Shown one piece after another: positions 51,101 to 57,100 of a stretch of 58,638 bases of DNA. The position numbers are program-made. Numbering within the stretch: the stretch's first letter is position 1; every line of letters starts with the position of its first letter. The stretch spans positions 1-58,638 of IMG/VR virus record IMGVR_UViG_2870479586_000001; one strand, 5' to 3'. This DNA comes from a virus. Lineage: Duplodnaviria > Heunggongvirae > Uroviricota > Caudoviricetes.

Positions 51101-54100
51101 GTCGTCTGCCAGTTCTGCCTCTTTCTCTTCACGGGCGATCTGCTGGTAGTGACGCGCCCAGCTCTGAGCCTCAAGACGATCCTGAATGTAATAAGCGTTC
51201 ATGGCTGAACTCCTGAAAATGGCTGTGAAAATATCGCCCGCGAAATGCCGGGCTGATTAGGAAAACAGGAAAGGAGATTAGTGATTCAGGCCGTTACCGC
51301 GTCCGTCGAGAAAAACTTCCACGAGCAAATCACGGGTATAAGTGCGTTCGATGCCGCGATGCAGATATACTGGCAACTTTCCCGGCGAGCCTGGCTAACC
51401 GGGACCAGAACGAACTGAACGAAATCCGCCGCCAGTGGGTTCTGGCTTTCCGGGAAAACGGGATCACCACAATGGAACAGGTGAGCGCCGGAGTGCGTGT
51501 CGCCCGTCGGCAGAATCGACCATTCCTGCCATCACCCGGGCAGTTTGTTGCCTGGTGCCGGGAAGAAGCATCCGTTACCGCCGGACTGCCAAACGCCAGC
51601 GAGCTGGTTGATATGGTTTACGAGTATTGCCGGAAGCGCGGGCTGTATCTGGATGCAGAGTCTTATCCGTGGAAATCAAACGCGCACTACTGGCTGGTTA
51701 CCAACCTGTATCAGAACATGCGGGCCAATGCGTTGACTGACGCGGAATTACGGCGCAAGGCTGCCGATGAACTGTCCTGTATGACCGCACGAATTAACCG
51801 TGGTGAGGCTATACCTGAACCAGTAAAACAACTTCCTGTCATGGGCGGTAGACCTCTAAATCGTGCACAGGCTCTGGCGAAGATCGCAGAAATCAAAGCT
51901 AAGTTCGGGCTGAAAGGAGCGATGAAATAGAGCTAAAGTATTAGCTTAAAAATAAAGTATACCTAGCGAATATAATCTAGGACTAGTTGTAACGCCCGAA
52001 ATGATTGATTGCGTGAGCAACAAAATTTTTCTTCCATTGTTGTGAAATCATTTAGCCATAAAGTTTATGCAGAGATTTTATTTTATTTTTGAGTTGATTT
52101 TTTTGTAACGAGCTGTATATTTCGCGCCTCTTGTCATACCAGTTATTTTTTTCATTATATTCATAACGTTGATTGAACTATGACCACTGTGAATAAAAAG
52201 TTAAAAAACTGCATCTGGCGCGATTACATGGTCGGTAATTGTTACCCAGATATTATCTCCAGTTTCTCTTTCTTTGATCCCAGCAAACAGTTTTGCATCA
52301 TCTGGTAATAAAGATGTTACGCAAACTTATGCCAGCGATGAGCATGCAAATAAAGTGGCCTCATTTGCAGCAAGTGCAGGTCAGAGCCTAGCAAATAATA
52401 ATGCAAGTAGTTTTGCTGTAAATACTTTATCAACTCAGGCGACAAAAGAGGTCGTCGACTGGTTGCAACAATATGGCAATGCGCGCATCAAGCTTAATGT
52501 CGATGATTCTTTTTCCTTGAAGGATTCATCATTCGACTTTTTATATCCATGGCTGGATACTCAGGATTATGTGCTATTCAGTCAGACATCACTACATCGT
52601 ACTGATGACCGAAATCAGACCAATATTGGTTTGGGGATTCGTCATTTCACTCCTGATAACGCAATGTTGGGTGCGAATGTTTTCTATGATTACGATTTAA
52701 GTCGCAGTCACTCTCGTGCAGGTTTTGGGGTTGAGTACTGGAGAGATTATTTCAGGCTTGGTGTAAATACCTATTTTGGTTTGTCTGACTGGAAGAACAG
52801 TCGGGATATTGATGATTATCTGGAAAGACCCGCAAATGGCTGGGATTTTTCTGCTGAAGGATGGCTACCTGCTTATCCGCAATTAGGGGCATCCATTCAG
52901 TTTGAAAAATATTATGGTAAAAATGTCGGGTTATTTGGAAGCGATAATCTTCAGGAAAACCCTTACGCAGTTACTGGGGGAATTTCTTATACACCAGTTC
53001 CTCTGATTAAGTTTTCTGCACAGCATAAGCAAGGACAGAGCAACGTTCACGATACAACCTTTGGTGTTGAGTTTAATTATCGCCCGGGCGTTTCCCTTGC
53101 TGAACAGCTTAGCAGTGACAATGTTGCTGTTATGCGAGAAGTCCAGAACCGGCGTTATGATTTTGTTGAACGAAATAACAACATTGTTCTGGAGTACAAG
53201 AAGAAGCATGCACTGAAAATCAGCTTACCAGAGTCTGTTCAGGGGAGGGGGAATCAATCATCCCTGTAACACTGACAATCAACAATGCTAGTGGTGGTAT
53301 CAAGTCTGTACAGTGGAATGATAGTGCATTCACTGCGGCTGGCGGTAAGATCAGTGGAAATGGCACATCATGGCAGATCACTTTACCGGCTTATAAAAGC
53401 GGAGATGTAAATTCGTGGAATGTTGGAGCCACAGTCCAGGATAACAGAGGCAATGTTTCCAACTATGCCGTTATGAATATCAGCGTTAATAATAGTGGTG
53501 TCTCGACAGCGGATTCATCTTTTACACTGGATGGAGATTCGTCGCCGACGATCTCTGCTGATAGCCAATCCACTTATCCGATAGTATTAAGCCTGAAAGA
53601 TAGTAACGGTAAGGCATTAACCGGACTGGCTGATGACATTGAAATGTCAGTGGAATTTACAGCAGATAGCAATAGTGCTCGACAGCGTGAAACGGTAACT
53701 GCTCCGTCATTAGGCGCGGTAGAGGAAATCTCTGCTGGGGTATATCACTCTGTTCTGACTGCTGGTTCGCAGGCTGGTACGGTACGTGTAACTGCAAAAG
53801 TTCAGGGAAAAACATTTACTCTCAGTATTAAGCAAACAGCAGCAACAGAACCTGATTCTGAGGTCAGTGCTGTTTTAACCGCTGCACCAGCAGAACAGGT
53901 AGTTGGTTACAATATCAATCTACAACTGGCAGTGAAGGATTCACAAGGAAATGCAATCACTGGTGATAACACTCTGAGCTTTTATGCTCTTAACCAGGCA
54001 GAAGGAGTCGAGTTTGGGACTGTAACGGAAAAAGACGGTGTCTATAGCGCGACAGTAACTTCAAAACGAGCTGGTAAGATTACTATCGGTGTTAAATCTG

Positions 54101-57100
54101 ATAGTCATGATTTCTCAGGTGTTAAGAAAGAAATCACCTTTATTGAGGACCGGCAGCAGGTTACATTCTCTCAGTTTGAAGCCAGCCAAAATAATGCATT
54201 GGCTGATGGAAAACAGAGAAATATGGTAACTGTAAGCCTTGCGGACCGTTTCGGCAATGTTGTTCCTGGTTATGCTGTCACATTGTCTTTACCAGCAGGG
54301 ATAACTCAAGTTGGTGGTGAACATGCTGTTTCAACTGACGAAAATGGTAATGCTATTTTTGCGTTAATAAGCTCCACTCCGGGGTCTTACGTGATTACAG
54401 CTCATGCTGGTTCTCAGATGTCTACTGAGTTAACAGTGACCTTTGCATCAAATATGACCGGAGCTTCACTGTCACTGACGCCTGAAAGCAGTAGTTTAAT
54501 TTCCAATATTCCTGCTAATGGTAAGGATGCAGCGGTATTAGATGTGCAGCTGACAAATACGAATGCGTCGGTCAATGGGCAAAAGATTCAGCTCATCACC
54601 TCATCTGAAGGATTATCTGTACCAACAAATATCGTGACTGATTCAACAGGGCATGTTTCTGTTCCGCTTACAACGGTGAAAGCTGGTGAGTACACGGTGA
54701 CTGCACGGGTGACTGACGGTTCCCATAGCGTGGAATCTGGCAGCGTTAAGTTAACTTTTGTGCCCGATGTTGCTTCTGCAGAACTTACTATGAGTGTATC
54801 AAAACAGGAGATTGTGGCCGATGGCAGTGAAAACGCAACAGTAAACATTCAGTTGGTTGATGCGAATAACAATGCGTTTACAGGCGAGGTGGATTTAACG
54901 ATTACACCATCGACGGGAGCATCATTGACCAGTAGTAATCTGCAACTGGATGCTCATGGACAGGCAACAACGCAGTTCACTGCAACGAAATCAGGCCAGT
55001 ACACAATTCAGGCCGAGTATGTTCTGGATGGGAAACGCATAACCGCAAGCCAGAATATTGATGCCGTGACGGATGTGAAGGGGGCTGTGTTGGAGATCAC
55101 ATCATCTGCATCTTCGGCTGTAGTGAGCGATACCAACAATCTGGTATTTACGTTACTGTTGAAAAGTAAGTCAGGCGAAGCATTAAGTGGTCGAGCATTG
55201 AATGTTAAGACATCTGGGCCGTCTAAATATGGTGCGTTGGTGGTTGATAAAACCACAGTAACGACTGATAAGAACGGTCAGGCTACGGTAAGCGTACATG
55301 GTCGAACGGTTGGTTCGTATAAATTAACGGCGACCTTAAACGAACTTGGCAGTGATGTTAGCGCGGTGAAATCATTCTCCCTGTACGCTGATGAGGCAAA
55401 TGGAGTATTGACTCTAACAAAAGATCCTGGTTATGAGACAAACGATGGCTCTCCAGTAGGTATTTATGCTCGATTTGTCGATCATTTTGGAAACCCATTA
55501 TCTGGTACGGTTGAGTTTTCTGCTGGTAGTGAAGATAGTCCAGACTCTCAACGGGTCAAAATGGAGCCTGCTACAGTAACGTTACACTGGACAGGTAATG
55601 CAGCTTCGGAATTCAGCACCTATGAAAGTGGTTATCACTGGATTAAGGCCAAAATAACGAATAGCAAAAATACATATGAGAAAACAATAAGGACTTATGT
55701 TGTAAAACTACCTGAAAAGGATAGTTAACAAAATTGAATGGGGAGGGCTTAGCCCTCCCTCTTTTTACAGGTTAGCGTTTGGGTTTTGTTGTTGGGGAGC
55801 TGTTTTTATAGGCGCTCCCAGGTTTTTAGTAAACCACTCAACGACTCTGTTTATAATAATTGGCTGATACCATGTCTTATCGCCATGCTCGGCCCCTTCT
55901 ACCAGCACGTACTCAGCGTTATCGCCGTTCGTCTTCAACATCCTGAATAGTTTGGCGCTTTGCTCCGGTGAAACCAGAGTATCTTTGCTACCATGCATAA
56001 TAAGAAATGGGGGTTTTACTCCTTTCATATGTCCGATTGGACTGGCGTTTAGCGCTTTTTCTTTTGACGCTGTGATGGGGGCTCCCGCAAAATTTCTGAA
56101 TGCAGTGCCATTGATCATTAAGGCTTCGGTTACGGCAGGAGAGCGATGAACCTCCTGCACTGATTCAGGGAACCCCTCGCCAATATTCAACAAGTCAGAA
56201 ATCCCATAAAGTGTGGCAACTGCCTGAACATCTGCTGATTGCTGAAGAAAGTCACCTTTATCAAAGGTTTTGTCACCATTTGTAGTTCCCATCATCTGGG
56301 CAAGCCATCCACCGGCAGAGTCACCCAGAACTCCGATTCTTTGAGGATCAATCCCATAATCGCTGGCATGTTCTCTCAGGTAACGTATTGCAGCTTTCCC
56401 ATCCTCAACTGGTGCTGGAAATGTATCAGGAATTGTTCTGTATTCTACAGCGGCCACAACAAAACCAGCTTCTGCCAGAGCCATTCTCATTTCAATAAAT
56501 TTGTCATGTTCAGAAGACATGAATCCGCCGCCGGGATAATAAATAATGGCTGGTTTTAAATCATTTGTTCGCGGGACAAGAACTGACATGTGAAGCTGTC
56601 TGACAGAACGAGTTCCTTTTATCTGGGAATAAACAACATCACCAATGAGATCGACCTGGTTTCTGGTCGATGAAACACTAATGATATCTGCACCCGGGGT
56701 GTAACCAGGAAGATTAGTCTGGACAGGTGTTGCACAACTCCCGACCGACATGGCCATTGACATACCATACAATAGTGTTGCAGATGATAATATCTTGTTA
56801 ATTTTCATGTTTTACATGCCTTGACTTATCGGATGAAATTCTCTTACTGAATTTAACGGCAGTTTAATAGCCGTACAACTCGTGGTAGCCAGGGAAATAT
56901 CCCAGTCGTGGTTAAGGTTGTACTTGACGGCTATTATTTCAACAATGCTTAAAGTGAGAGCTTAAGGTTATGCGTATGTTTTACAGTCCGAGTAGATTCT
57001 GACCAATAGCTTCTTTGTATAATTCTGTCAGAAATAAATCTTGGCTTGCATGAAGTTTGAGACCTTATCTTGTTTGATTATGAATAATCAATTCGCCATA

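What the first reader, a model, noticed from the sequence alone, without database searches (positions are those of the whole stretch)
51930..56900. Adhesin plus secreted esterase island embedded in the decayed prophage
Between the P fragment and the second ninB-like block lies about 5 kb of non-phage DNA: an AT-rich leader, an intimin/invasin-family inverse autotransporter (beta-barrel region then many Big-type repeats) and a convergent lipoprotein esterase with a shared bidirectional terminator. This cargo sits at the same relative slot as the 169-aa moron of prophage A. The adhesin is open except for one G-run frame break and an unclear N-terminus.
Basis: partly seen in the sequence, partly recalled or inferred. 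Interest (0 to 1): 0.5.

Follow-up and report, generated by a model that had tools for sequence, protein, structure and literature searches.

The report
Dead phage-borne adhesin plus intact esterase
This stretch holds two ordinary accessory genes carried by lambda-like phages of E. coli: an uncharacterised intimin/invasin-type surface adhesin, here killed by two small frameshifts, and an intact lipoprotein esterase. The find is real but already annotated in hundreds of genomes.

Summary
Between a truncated P gene and ybcN (NinB-like) lie 5.2 kb of lower-GC DNA. It holds an AT-rich leader, an inverse autotransporter (IAT) gene (52180-55728, +), a GC-rich hairpin, and a convergent lipoprotein esterase (55765-56808, -).

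Three corrections:
1. The DNA is phage cargo, not foreign DNA dropped into a dead prophage. Prophages with full early and late gene sets carry the same gene pair in the same P-ybcN slot. One is the icd-integrated prophage of ST131 strain 81009.
2. The pair is two independent modules. Isolated phages carry the esterase alone, and one prophage carries the IAT alone. The hairpin travels with the IAT module.
3. The adhesin has two frameshifts, not one. A8->A6 at 52204-52209 breaks codon 9-10 and removes the signal peptide; two other genomes share it. G5->G4 at 53242-53245 is seen in none of 5,426 complete genomes. Repairing both gives a 1183-aa protein identical to an intact allele.

The IAT is a distant paralogue of FdeC (42% identity). 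It is below cut-off for every named IAT model, occurs in about 10% of complete E. coli genomes, and varies by 1-4 copies of a 119-aa Ig domain. I found no paper on it. Verdict: a new, unnamed member of a known kind, non-functional here. Interest is low to moderate.

The parts
51368..51930 (+). 3' remnant of lambda-type replication gene P. The left edge, 51367|51368, is the junction of a deletion of about 5 kb that removed kil through O and the 5' part of P.
   Evidence: Pfam Phage_lambda_P 4.7e-43, profile positions 46-162 of 162. blastn against the intact prophage of strain A36 jumps from L003 413 to L003 5469 at this point. RefSeq annotates the sister genome as 'replication protein P, missing N-terminus'.
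51931..52179 (+). AT-rich leader of the adhesin module (30% GC), with two sigma-70-like hexamer pairs at 52094-52121 and 52131-52158.
   Evidence: GC 0.30 against 0.52 in the flanks. The promoter-like sites are consensus matches only and are not enriched over shuffles. The leader travels with the gene in all alleles compared.
52180..55728 (+). Inverse autotransporter (type Ve) adhesin pseudogene. The ancestral product is 1183 aa: signal peptide, short periplasmic segment, 12-strand-type beta-barrel, D00-like domain, six Big_1/Invasin_D3 Ig-like domains and an orphan tip domain.
   Evidence: Pfam IAT_beta 1.5e-102, Big_1 7.4e-58. PDB invasin barrel 4E1T 8.9e-74, intimin barrel 4E1S 6.9e-63, intimin 6TQD 9e-10. 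Domain slices. RefSeq marks the sister genome's copy 'frameshifted'. In-silico repair of both indels gives 100% identity to intact WP_024232096.1.
52204..52209 (+). Lesion 1: an A6 run where intact alleles have A8 (a 2-nt deletion at codons 9-10). Translation from the ATG at 52180 then stops at codon 43, so the signal peptide is lost.
   Evidence: Alignment with the intact allele and the sequence itself. The A6-bearing 98-mer is exact in only 2 of 559 IAT-positive complete genomes. The A8-bearing 98-mer is exact in 497 of 560 records. Stop position.
52466..53200 (+). Beta-barrel translocator region (residues 97-341 of the intact protein), read in frame 2 in this window.
   Evidence: phmmer against PDB aligns residues 97-341 with the invasin (4E1T) and intimin (4E1S) barrels. 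Pfam IAT_beta covers residues 25-302 of ORF 52274-53269.
53242..53245 (+). Lesion 2: a G4 run where intact alleles have G5 (a 1-nt deletion at the barrel/passenger junction, about codon 355). It is private to this window.
   Evidence: Alignment and sequence. None of the 559 IAT-positive complete genomes matches the G4-bearing 98-mer exactly; the best matches have a 99-nt span.
53486..53840 (+). Single copy of a unit of about 357 bp (119 aa, one Ig-like domain) that is tandemly repeated in other alleles: 2 copies give 1302 aa, 3 give 1421 aa and 4 give 1540 aa.
   Evidence: blastn maps this window segment twice in strain A36 and three times in ST131 strain 81009. Allele lengths of 1183, 1302, 1421 and 1540 aa come.
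55348..55725 (+). C-terminal tip domain (residues 1058-1183). It is a divergent Ig-like or orphan domain and shows no C-type lectin signature.
   Evidence: Pfam gives only Big_1 at E=0.077. No PDB sequence hit at E<=10. Only 15 hits among 1.84 billion representative proteins, and the only hits spanning the whole domain are its own family (99% identity) and a 135-aa fragment at 55% identity. The single-sequence AlphaFold model was unusable, pLDDT 34.6.
55740..55760 (+). Intrinsic-terminator hairpin of the adhesin module (GGGGAGGGC-TTA-GCCCTCCCT followed by CTTTTT). It may also serve, weakly, the convergent esterase.
   Evidence: Terminator scan. Fold energy -20.8 kcal/mol, z -3.5 on the + strand, against -16.7, z -2.6 and no clean U-run on the - strand. 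The same hairpin is kept in the IAT-only prophage, and a different hairpin follows the esterase in phage 4A7.
55765..56808 (-). Intact 347-aa alpha/beta-hydrolase esterase with a lipoprotein signal peptide (Cys25, Ala at +2), a GDSAG nucleophile motif (162-166) and a PGGG oxyanion motif (92-95).
   Evidence: Pfam BD-FAE 1.4e-44, Abhydrolase_3 2.1e-22. Lipobox and motifs by regex. PDB 6NKF 3.1e-36, 6MLY GH43-CE 1.1e-21, 6XYC acetyl xylan esterase 3.8e-21. PHROG 3341 'esterase' 4.3e-128. Annotated as intact WP_021559744.1 in sister genomes.
56809..57113 (-). Upstream region of the esterase module (37% GC). The right boundary of the cargo is at about 57113/57114.
   Evidence: The IAT-only prophage AST217 lacks 55768-57113 and resumes homology at 57114. 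Esterase-only phages share 55761-58254. GC. The consensus scan found no sigma-70-like site on the minus strand here.
57256..57711 (+). ybcN (NinB-like), the first gene of the conserved nin block that bounds the cargo slot on the right.
   Evidence: Pfam NinB 4.5e-05, score 23.7 against a cut-off of 23.8. 99% identical to annotated YbcN.

Best explanation
The segment from about 51921 to 57113 is the variable P-to-ninB cargo slot of a lambda-like (DLP12/Bievrevirus-type) prophage. It holds two independently exchangeable accessory modules ('morons').

Module 1 (about 51921-55767) is a self-contained cassette: an AT-rich leader, an inverse autotransporter adhesin gene and its own intrinsic terminator. 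In intact alleles the inferred mechanism is as follows. The Sec system exports the protein through an N-terminal signal peptide. The intimin/invasin-type beta-barrel inserts in the outer membrane. The barrel exports a C-terminal rod of eight Ig-like domains that ends in a family-specific tip, which acts as an adhesin or biofilm factor. Stalk length is set by 1-4 copies of a 119-aa domain.

Module 2 (about 55761-57113, opposite strand) encodes an outer-membrane-targeted lipoprotein serine esterase of the carbohydrate-esterase/HSL-like BD-FAE type. Its most likely activity is de-O-acetylation of a glycan or hydrolysis of another short-chain ester outside the cytoplasm.

In this window the prophage is a remnant. 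The immunity-to-P region is deleted, and an IS3-family element cuts the nin region. The adhesin gene is a pseudogene. An inherited A8->A6 deletion at codon 9-10 abolishes the signal peptide and stops translation at codon 43. A second, private G5->G4 deletion lies at the barrel/passenger junction. The esterase is still intact.

Shown: identity of the domains, module boundaries, the lesions and the distribution. Inferred: export route, adhesive function, esterase substrate, and promoter activity in lysogens.
For: Domains.

Same cargo between full-length P and ybcN in prophages with complete early and late regions: strain A36 and ST131 strain 81009. The 81009 prophage has int, xis, exo/bet/gam, repressor, O/P, Q, lysis, terminase, head and tail genes, plus iss and sitABCD.

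Module independence and exact boundaries: the esterase alone is found in 8 isolated phages at 98.2% identity from window 55761 onward. The IAT alone is found in strain AST217, which lacks 55768-57113. The hairpin is kept with the IAT and is different in esterase-only phage 4A7.

Composition: cargo GC is 0.30-0.45 against 0.52 in the flanks.

Phage association: both proteins match PHROG families, 7803/16344 and 3341.

Lesions. Repairing both restores 100% identity to the intact 1183-aa WP_024232096.1, and the unrepaired ORF stops at codon 43. RefSeq annotates the identical sister locus as 'frameshifted'.

Allele counts in 5,426 complete genomes: the IAT 5' end is in 559 genomes. The A8 form is exact in 497 of 560 records, A6 is in 2, and G4 is in none. 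The esterase is in 674-682 genomes.

Domain copy-number variation.
Against: No expression or functional data exist for either gene.

The promoter-like hexamers in the leader are no more frequent than in shuffled sequence.

No isolated, plaque-forming phage in the phage collection carries the IAT, by DNA or by protein search. Its transfer by virions is therefore inferred from prophage structure only.

[quoted passage not shown] Lysogenic expression of the esterase is thus unproven.

The tip domain has no informative homologue and could not be modelled, so the ligand is unknown.

The private G4 lesion could be a homopolymer sequencing error rather than a mutation.
Confidence: 0.85

Rival explanations
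1. The adhesin gene is a phase-variable contingency locus. Slipped-strand changes in the A-run (and G-run) would switch expression on and off, and the window simply shows an OFF state.
For: Both lesions lie in homopolymer runs, A8 and G5. Three other genomes show a 99-nt span consistent with A7.
Against: The A8-bearing 98-mer is exact in 497 of 560 records, and most of the remainder are same-length SNP variants. A6 occurs in only 2 genomes, both of which match the whole 5,051-nt cargo query at 100.0% identity. G4 occurs in none. An 8-nt A-run and a 5-nt G-run are short for efficient slippage in E. coli (general knowledge). A 2-nt loss combined with a separate 1-nt loss looks like decay, not toggling.
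Confidence: 0.04
2. The frameshifts are assembly or sequencing errors in homopolymers, and the gene is intact in the living strain.
For: The G4 state is unique among 5,426 complete genomes. Single-base homopolymer undercalls are typical long-read or pyrosequencing errors (general knowledge).
Against: The A6 state is a 2-nt loss and is identical in two independently assembled genomes, 2015C-4136CT1 and Z1323HEC0355. RefSeq also calls the latter's copy frameshifted. Even if G4 is an error, A6 alone ends translation at codon 43.
Confidence: 0.07
3. The 5-kb block is a non-phage genomic islet that inserted into an already dead prophage.
For: GC is lower than in the surrounding phage genes. A homologue with 80% amino-acid identity lies in a purely chromosomal context (downstream of ydcSTUV-patD) in E. 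albertii, so the gene probably has a chromosomal origin.
Against: The identical arrangement, with identical junctions to P and to ylcH/ybcN, occurs in prophages that keep all functional regions. No integrase, transposase or repeats flank the block in the window. Both proteins are in PHROG families.
Confidence: 0.04
4. The adhesin and esterase form one functional two-gene system, for example an esterase that unmasks the adhesin's glycan receptor, and they are co-selected.
For: They are adjacent and convergent in about 147 genomes by full-length match. By inclusion-exclusion, roughly 500 genomes contain both somewhere. The esterase's own terminator is replaced by the adhesin's hairpin at the junction.
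Against: Each occurs without the other: esterase-only phages and an IAT-only prophage. Genome counts differ, 674-682 for the esterase against 559 for the IAT. In the window the esterase is kept intact while the adhesin has decayed.
Confidence: 0.1

Closest known systems
FdeC / EaeH (E. coli inverse autotransporter adhesin)
   Same: Same architecture: signal peptide, no LysM domain, an intimin/invasin-type barrel, a D00-like domain and a long chain of Big_1-type Ig domains without a C-type lectin tip. It is the best alignment found: 42% identity over the first 664 residues, E=3e-175.
   Different: Identity is only 42% in the N-terminal half and 26-29% in the remainder. The true fdeC sits at its usual chromosomal locus in the sister genome. 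This gene is prophage-borne, shorter (1183-1540 aa against 1416) and has an orphan tip domain. FdeC's collagen and epithelial-cell binding (Nesta 2012, cited in PMC8281228) cannot be transferred to it.
Intimin (Eae) and Yersinia invasin
   Same: The barrel aligns to the solved barrels 4E1T (8.9e-74) and 4E1S (6.9e-63). The first passenger domain aligns to intimin 6TQD, and the Ig repeats align to invasin 1CWV.
   Different: No LysM domain was seen, and no C-type lectin tip. NCBIfam intimin score is 347 against a cut-off of 1400. The gene is not in the LEE and has no Tir partner.
IatA-D, YeeJ and SinH (the E. coli IAT census of Goh et al. 2019, PMC6714894)
   Same: Same protein family, defined by PF11924. 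IatB, IatC and IatD were shown to be surface-exposed and to promote biofilm when over-expressed. That is the most likely phenotype class here too.
   Different: Scores are below cut-off for IatC (404 against 2400), SinH (318 against 999) and YchO/YchP (272 against 508). Sizes differ. Data Set S1 of that paper has no column for this gene, although EC958 and ZH193, which carry it, were in the panel. All census genes are described at fixed chromosomal positions, whereas this one is on prophages.
Lambdoid-phage morons in the P-ninB slot and elsewhere (DLP12 ren-emrE-ybcK-ybcLM; bor/iss, lom, sitABCD)
   Same: Same position as the DLP12-type ren-emrE-ybcK block. Lower GC, its own terminator, and presence or absence among otherwise collinear phages.
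   Different: At 3.5-4.6 kb the adhesin gene is unusually large for a moron in this slot. Independent expression in the lysogen is untested.
Carbohydrate-esterase-like / HSL-family alpha/beta-hydrolases (BD-FAE PF20434; PDB 6NKF, 6MLY, 6XYC, 6TKX)
   Same: Full-length BD-FAE match (152.6 bits against a cut-off of 26.8), a GDSAG nucleophile motif and a PGGG oxyanion motif.
   Different: It carries a lipoprotein signal peptide and is phage-borne. It is far below every NCBIfam equivalog cut-off, for example acetyl esterase Aes at 57.7 against 389. The substrate is unknown. It is unrelated in fold to the SGNH-type NanS-p esterases of Stx phages (general knowledge).

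Membership tests
Inverse autotransporter (type Ve secretion; intimin/invasin family) | Intimin-type outer-membrane beta-barrel domain (PF11924), N-terminal to the passenger | tested here: met
   IAT_beta 1.5e-102, 343 bits against a cut-off of 22.3, full profile 3-279 of 279. Residues 97-341 align to the invasin and intimin barrel structures.
Inverse autotransporter (type Ve secretion; intimin/invasin family) | C-terminal passenger built of bacterial Ig-like (Big_1/Invasin_D3) domains | tested here: met
   Big_1 7.4e-58 (5 stretches) and Invasin_D3 9.9e-50 (6 stretches). 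Slice-by-slice scan: six slices show Ig-like (Big_1/Invasin_D3) matches, four of them above a Pfam cut-off. A D00-like domain is seen only by PDB match, and the tip is weak.
Inverse autotransporter (type Ve secretion; intimin/invasin family) | N-terminal Sec signal peptide in frame with the barrel and passenger (one continuous ORF) | tested here: not met
   The intact allele begins MTTVNKKLKKTASGAITWSVIVTQILSPVSLSLIPANSFA|SS, judged a signal peptide by inspection. In the window the A8->A6 deletion shifts the frame at codon 9-10, with a stop at codon 43, and a second frameshift lies at 53242-53245. The window copy is a pseudogene of a family member.
Intimin/invasin proper | C-type lectin-like receptor-binding tip and a periplasmic LysM domain (LysM is in intimin, not in invasin; general knowledge) | tested here: not met
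   No LysM or Intimin_C hit in Pfam. The tip, residues 1058-1183, gives only Big_1 at E=0.077. NCBIfam intimin score is 347 against 1400.
FdeC/EaeH orthologue group | High identity to FdeC and the conserved chromosomal locus | tested here: not met
   42% identity over 664 aa. The genuine fdeC is present elsewhere in the sister genome. This gene lies in a prophage.
Named E. coli IATs (IatC, SinH/IatB, YchO/IatA) by NCBIfam equivalog models | Score at or above the curated cut-off | tested here: not met
   IatC 403.7 against 2400, SinH 317.9 against 999, YchO/YchP 271.9 against 508, Ilp 308.4 against 1125.
Phage moron (accessory cassette) | Lies between conserved phage genes and is present or absent among otherwise collinear phages | tested here: met
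   Boundaries are at P (about 51921) and ylcH/ybcN (57114). The IAT module is absent from phages 4A7 and Perceval, and the esterase module is absent from AST217.
Phage moron (accessory cassette) | Own terminator and deviant base composition | tested here: met
   Hairpin with T-run at 55740-55769, conserved in the IAT-only locus. GC 0.30-0.45 against 0.52.
Phage moron (accessory cassette) | Own promoter, with expression from the repressed prophage | tested here: inconclusive
   Only consensus-like hexamers were found in the leader, and they are not enriched over shuffles. No RNA data for the IAT. The esterase is not listed among lysogen-expressed Perceval genes in LB (PMC9928086).
Bacterial lipoprotein | Lipobox with an invariant Cys after a hydrophobic signal sequence (PROSITE PS51257-type rule) | tested here: met
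   A regex match to GMSMAMSVGSC places the Cys at position 25. Lys2 and Lys5 lie in the n-region, and Ala is at +2, so no Asp retention signal. Lipidation itself is not testable here.
Alpha/beta-hydrolase esterase (BD-FAE / HSL-like) | Family HMM above cut-off, nucleophile elbow G-x-S-x-G and an oxyanion-hole motif | tested here: met
   BD-FAE 152.6 bits against 26.8. GDSAG at 162-166 and PGGG at 92-95. 6NKF 3.1e-36. Catalytic activity is not testable here.
Phase-variable contingency gene | Frequent tract-length polymorphism among closely related genomes | tested here: not met
   A8 exact in 497 of 560 records, A6 in 2, a 99-nt span in 3, G4 in 0.

The most novel reading that the evidence does not exclude
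The intact alleles may represent an eighth E. coli inverse-autotransporter adhesin lineage, spread by phages. The 2019 census did not list it, although its panel strains EC958 and ZH193 carry it. The lineage rides on lambda-like prophages that also carry iss and sitABCD, in ST131 and about 10% of complete genomes. Its stalk length varies by 1-4 copies of a 119-aa Ig domain, and its tip domain has no informative homologue, so it may recognise a new ligand. Its neighbour, the lipoprotein esterase moron, may be a surface glycan de-O-acetylase. Together they could contribute to gut or urinary colonisation by pandemic ExPEC clones. The E. albertii homologue next to patD would mark the chromosomal source from which a phage captured the gene.
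Probability: 0.3. Interest if true: 0.5.

Novelty: new member of a known kind. Interest (0 to 1): 0.28.

Why it matters
For this window it matters little. The adhesin is a pseudogene in a prophage remnant, and only the esterase may still be functional.

More broadly, the intact gene is a phage-mobilised adhesin candidate. It is present in roughly one in ten complete E. coli genomes, including ST131 strains 81009 and EC958. It is absent from the published list of E. coli inverse autotransporters, and it has an uncharacterised tip and variable stalk length. That makes it a reasonable target for adhesion, biofilm and vaccine-antigen work. It is also a clean example of how the P-ninB slot of lambdoid phages shuffles large surface-protein cargo.

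Tried and rejected
1. Structure of the last two passenger domains by single-sequence AlphaFold2 gave pLDDT 34.6 and was unusable. No deeper alignment could be built, because the 120 listed homologues are all at least 93% identical.
2. PDB sequence search with the tip domain found no hit at E<=10.
3. An exhaustive HMMER search of 1.84 billion representatives with the tip found only its own family over the full length. Other hits were generic Big-repeat matches to the first half.
4. Phase variation was rejected on allele counts.
5. The search for the IAT in isolated phage genomes found nothing by DNA. By protein it found only two unrelated records, at 32-41% identity.
6. The PADLOC defence-system scan of the IAT, the esterase and the 169-aa ORF found nothing.
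7. Rfam on the whole window found nothing inside the finding.
8. E. albertii patD-IAT DNA against E. coli complete genomes gave no match.
9. Literature searches by RefSeq accession, and by combinations of inverse autotransporter, prophage, ST131, invasin and sitABCD, found no paper describing this gene.
10. A self-HMM of the 119-aa unit did not detect the other Ig domains, so the internal domains are mutually divergent. Slices were used instead.

Full report
**What is in the sequence**

- ORF 51472-51930 matches only the C-terminal two-thirds of Phage_lambda_P (4.7e-43).
- A 249-nt leader at 51931-52179 has 30% GC, against 52% in the flanking phage genes.
- Three ORFs in frames 1, 2 and 1 follow: 52180-52308, 52274-53269 and 53473-55728.
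- The middle ORF is a full-length match to the inverse-autotransporter barrel PF11924 (1.5e-102). The last ORF carries five or six Big_1/Invasin_D3 domains (7.4e-58 and 9.9e-50).
- On the opposite strand, 55765-56808 encodes a 347-aa alpha/beta-hydrolase (BD-FAE 1.4e-44).
- That protein has a PROSITE-type lipobox (Cys25, Ala at +2), a GDSAG nucleophile motif and a PGGG oxyanion motif.
- A 9-bp GC-rich hairpin at 55740-55760 lies in the 36-nt gap between the two stop codons.
- ybcN (NinB-like), ninE and ybcO follow from 57256.

**The lesions**

I aligned the window with near-identical genomes. The intact allele is in strain 377323_2f (WP_024232096.1, 1183 aa). Three differences separate the window from it:
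- A6 instead of A8 at 52204-52209.
- G4 instead of G5 at 53242-53245.
- One synonymous SNP at 55068.

The 'unclear N-terminus' is the 2-nt deletion.

Restoring both indels in silico gives a protein 100% identical to the intact allele. Without repair, translation from the ATG at 52180 ends at codon 43. With only the A-run repaired it ends at codon 364.

The first ORF that covers the barrel starts at a TTG after the signal peptide, so no exported product is expected.

RefSeq annotates the copy in the sister genome Z1323HEC0355 as 'frameshifted'. That genome has A6 but G5.

**Are the lesions real, or a switch?**

Among 5,426 complete E. coli genomes, the 5' end of the gene is present in 559.
- The A8-bearing 98-mer is exact in 497 of 560 records, and most others are same-length SNP variants.
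- A6 is found in only two genomes, 2015C-4136CT1 and Z1323HEC0355. Three further genomes have a 99-nt span.
- The G4 state is found in none.

A6 is therefore an inherited lineage mutation. G4 is either a private second hit or a homopolymer error in the source assembly. Phase variation is not supported.

**Context in the window**

- The window starts in proA and thrW, with the tRNA at 1369-1441.
- Prophage A occupies about 1462-42534. It has P at 10740-11441, a 169-aa ORF at 13664-14173 (PHROG 1779, unknown function) and ybcN at 14361-14816.
- From 42534 to the end, the window is collinear at 99.98% with the thrW-linked prophage remnant of Z1323HEC0355.
- That remnant runs: integrase, IS3, a PACE efflux/LysR pair, early-left genes, exo-bet-gam, P', IAT', esterase, ylcH-ybcN-ninE-ybcO, and then an IS3-family element.
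- Relative to a complete relative, the remnant lacks about 5 kb between gam/kil and the middle of P. The junction is at 51367|51368.

**It is phage cargo, in two modules**

The same leader, IAT, hairpin and esterase lie between a full-length P and ylcH-ybcN in strain A36 and in ST131 strain 81009.

In 81009 the prophage is integrated at icd. It carries int, xis, exo/bet/gam, repressor, O/P, Q, lysis, terminase, head and tail genes, plus iss and sitABCD.

Eight isolated phages carry the esterase alone, at 98.2% identity starting exactly at window 55761. They include 4A7, Lambda_4C10, D2, 1W, 3W, PhiR47_2 and Perceval; the records I opened (4A7, Perceval) are classified in genus Bievrevirus. In those two, the esterase sits in the arrangement P-ren-emrE-ybcK-esterase-ybcN.

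Strain AST217 carries the IAT alone. Its homology to the window runs to 55767 and resumes at 57114.

This gives the two modules:
- IAT module: about 51921-55767.
- Esterase module: about 55761-57113.

The hairpin is retained in the IAT-only locus. The esterase-only phage has a different hairpin after the esterase stop. The 'shared terminator' is therefore the adhesin's terminator. It has a clean U-run only on the + strand.

Both proteins fall in PHROG families: 7803 and 16344 (unknown function), and 3341 ('esterase'). Neither matches a PADLOC defence model.

No isolated phage record carries the IAT.

**Distribution**

- The IAT is in 559-561 complete genomes, about 10%.
- The esterase is in 674-682, about 12%.
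- The union for the whole block is 735. Roughly 500 genomes therefore hold both. This is an inclusion-exclusion estimate, not a direct count of adjacency.
- The full contiguous block is in 147 genomes.

**The adhesin family**

Alleles of 1183, 1302, 1421 and 1540 aa differ by one 119-aa Ig-like unit. The window has one copy, at 53486-53840. A36 has two copies and 81009 has three.

The domain order in the intact protein is:
- signal peptide;
- a short periplasmic segment with no LysM domain;
- barrel, residues 97-341;
- a D00-like domain, 342-441, seen only by its match to intimin 6TQD (9e-10);
- six Big_1/Invasin_D3 domains, about 437-1062;
- a tip, 1058-1183, with only a marginal Big_1 signal.

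The tip has no PDB sequence relative. It has only 15 hits in 1.84 billion representative proteins. Over its full length it matches only its own family at 99% identity and one 135-aa fragment at 55% identity. A single-sequence AlphaFold model failed, with pLDDT 34.6.

The closest characterised protein is FdeC, at 42% identity over the first 664 residues. The true fdeC is present at its normal locus in the sister genome.

The protein scores below the curated cut-off of every named IAT model in NCBIfam: IatC, intimin, SinH, Ilp, YrIlm, Inv and YchO.

The 2019 census of E. coli IATs lists intimin, FdeC, YeeJ and IatA-D at fixed chromosomal positions (PMC6714894). Its Data Set S1 has no column for this gene, although its panel strains EC958 and ZH193 carry it. 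Literature searches found no paper on it.

Outside E. coli, one scan of species-representative genomes found only E. albertii, with 80% identity over the first 237 residues. There the gene lies directly downstream of ydcSTUV-patD, with no phage genes in the 6 kb upstream. This hints at a chromosomal origin. E. coli complete genomes have no close copy of that DNA.

**How it most likely works**

For intact alleles I infer the standard type Ve route, from the family's established biology:
1. Sec exports the protein.
2. BAM inserts the barrel into the outer membrane.
3. The barrel exports the C-terminal Ig-domain rod by a hairpin mechanism.
4. The orphan tip engages an unknown ligand.

The most likely phenotype class is surface adhesion or biofilm promotion, as shown for IatB, IatC and IatD. 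Reach would be tuned by the 1-4-copy domain.

The gene points the same way as the early-right operon. It would therefore also be transcribed by read-through after induction. In the lysogen it would depend on a promoter in the AT-rich leader, where only consensus-like sites are seen.

The esterase is predicted to be Lol-sorted to the outer membrane, because it has no Asp at +2. It is predicted to act on acetyl or other short-chain esters, given its nearest solved relatives. These are 6NKF, the GH43-CE protein 6MLY, and the acetyl xylan or carbohydrate esterases 6XYC and 6TKX. Its substrate is unknown.

In the LF82 lysogen of Perceval, the esterase is not among the genes expressed well above prophage background in LB (PMC9928086).

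**In this window**

The adhesin cannot be made. The esterase remains intact and is identical to the annotated protein in sister genomes.

**Verdict**

The object is an unnamed but widely annotated member of the inverse-autotransporter family, together with an independent esterase moron. Both are ordinary lambdoid-phage cargo, and the adhesin is doubly frameshifted here.

Interest for this window is low. The intact family is a moderately interesting and easily testable adhesin candidate in ST131 and other lineages.

Noticed in passing
window 1-42534 and 42534-58638: Two lambdoid prophages sit in tandem at thrW. A full-length 'prophage A' (about 1462-42534) lies between tRNA-Thr (1369-1441) and the decayed prophage. 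Sister genome Z1323HEC0355 has only the remnant. Short att/integrase-end repeats occur at 1399-1595 and 42534-42793.
   Followed up: partly
window 51367|51368: A clean deletion junction joins the gam/kil side directly to the middle of P. Relative to strain A36, about 5 kb is missing: kil, the repressor region, the O-like replication gene and the 5' part of P.
   Followed up: yes
window 58323-58445 (+): A full-length Rfam isrC (Hfq-binding sRNA) match, 135 bits against a gathering score of 39, lies inside the 5' part of the IS3-family element that truncates the nin/rusA region at about 58291.
   Followed up: no
window about 45300-46750: By collinearity with the annotated sister genome, a PACE-family multidrug/biocide efflux gene and a divergent LysR regulator sit as further cargo. 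They lie between an IS3 element and the early-left genes of the decayed prophage.
   Followed up: no
window 13664-14173 (+): The 169-aa ORF in prophage A's P-ninB slot matches PHROG 1779 (unknown function, 2.5e-77). It matches no PADLOC defence model.
   Followed up: partly
L010 (E. albertii NBRC 107761, NZ_BBMY01000075.1) 1-6713: A homologue of the adhesin, 80% identical over residues 1-237, lies directly downstream of ydcSTUV-patD in a non-phage context. The contig ends inside the gene. It may be the chromosomal source of the phage cargo.
   Followed up: partly
L012 (E. coli ST131 strain 81009, NZ_CP021179.1 3418001-3468000): One icd-integrated lambda-like prophage carries four cargo sets at once: the IAT (1421 aa), the esterase, iss (bor-like), and sitABCD beyond the tail-fibre genes.
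   Followed up: partly
L004/L005 (phages 4A7 and Perceval), P-ybcN slot: In isolated Bievrevirus phages the same slot holds ren, emrE (qacE-like efflux), a ybcK-type large serine recombinase and the esterase. The slot is therefore a mosaic hot spot where 1-5 kb cassettes are swapped.
   Followed up: yes
L011 (Moraxella osloensis assembly, 357-bp contig): A 357-bp contig in a Moraxella assembly encodes a sequence 91% identical to residues 432-543 of the adhesin, which is exactly one repeat unit. It is most likely E. coli contamination or a collapsed repeat.
   Followed up: no
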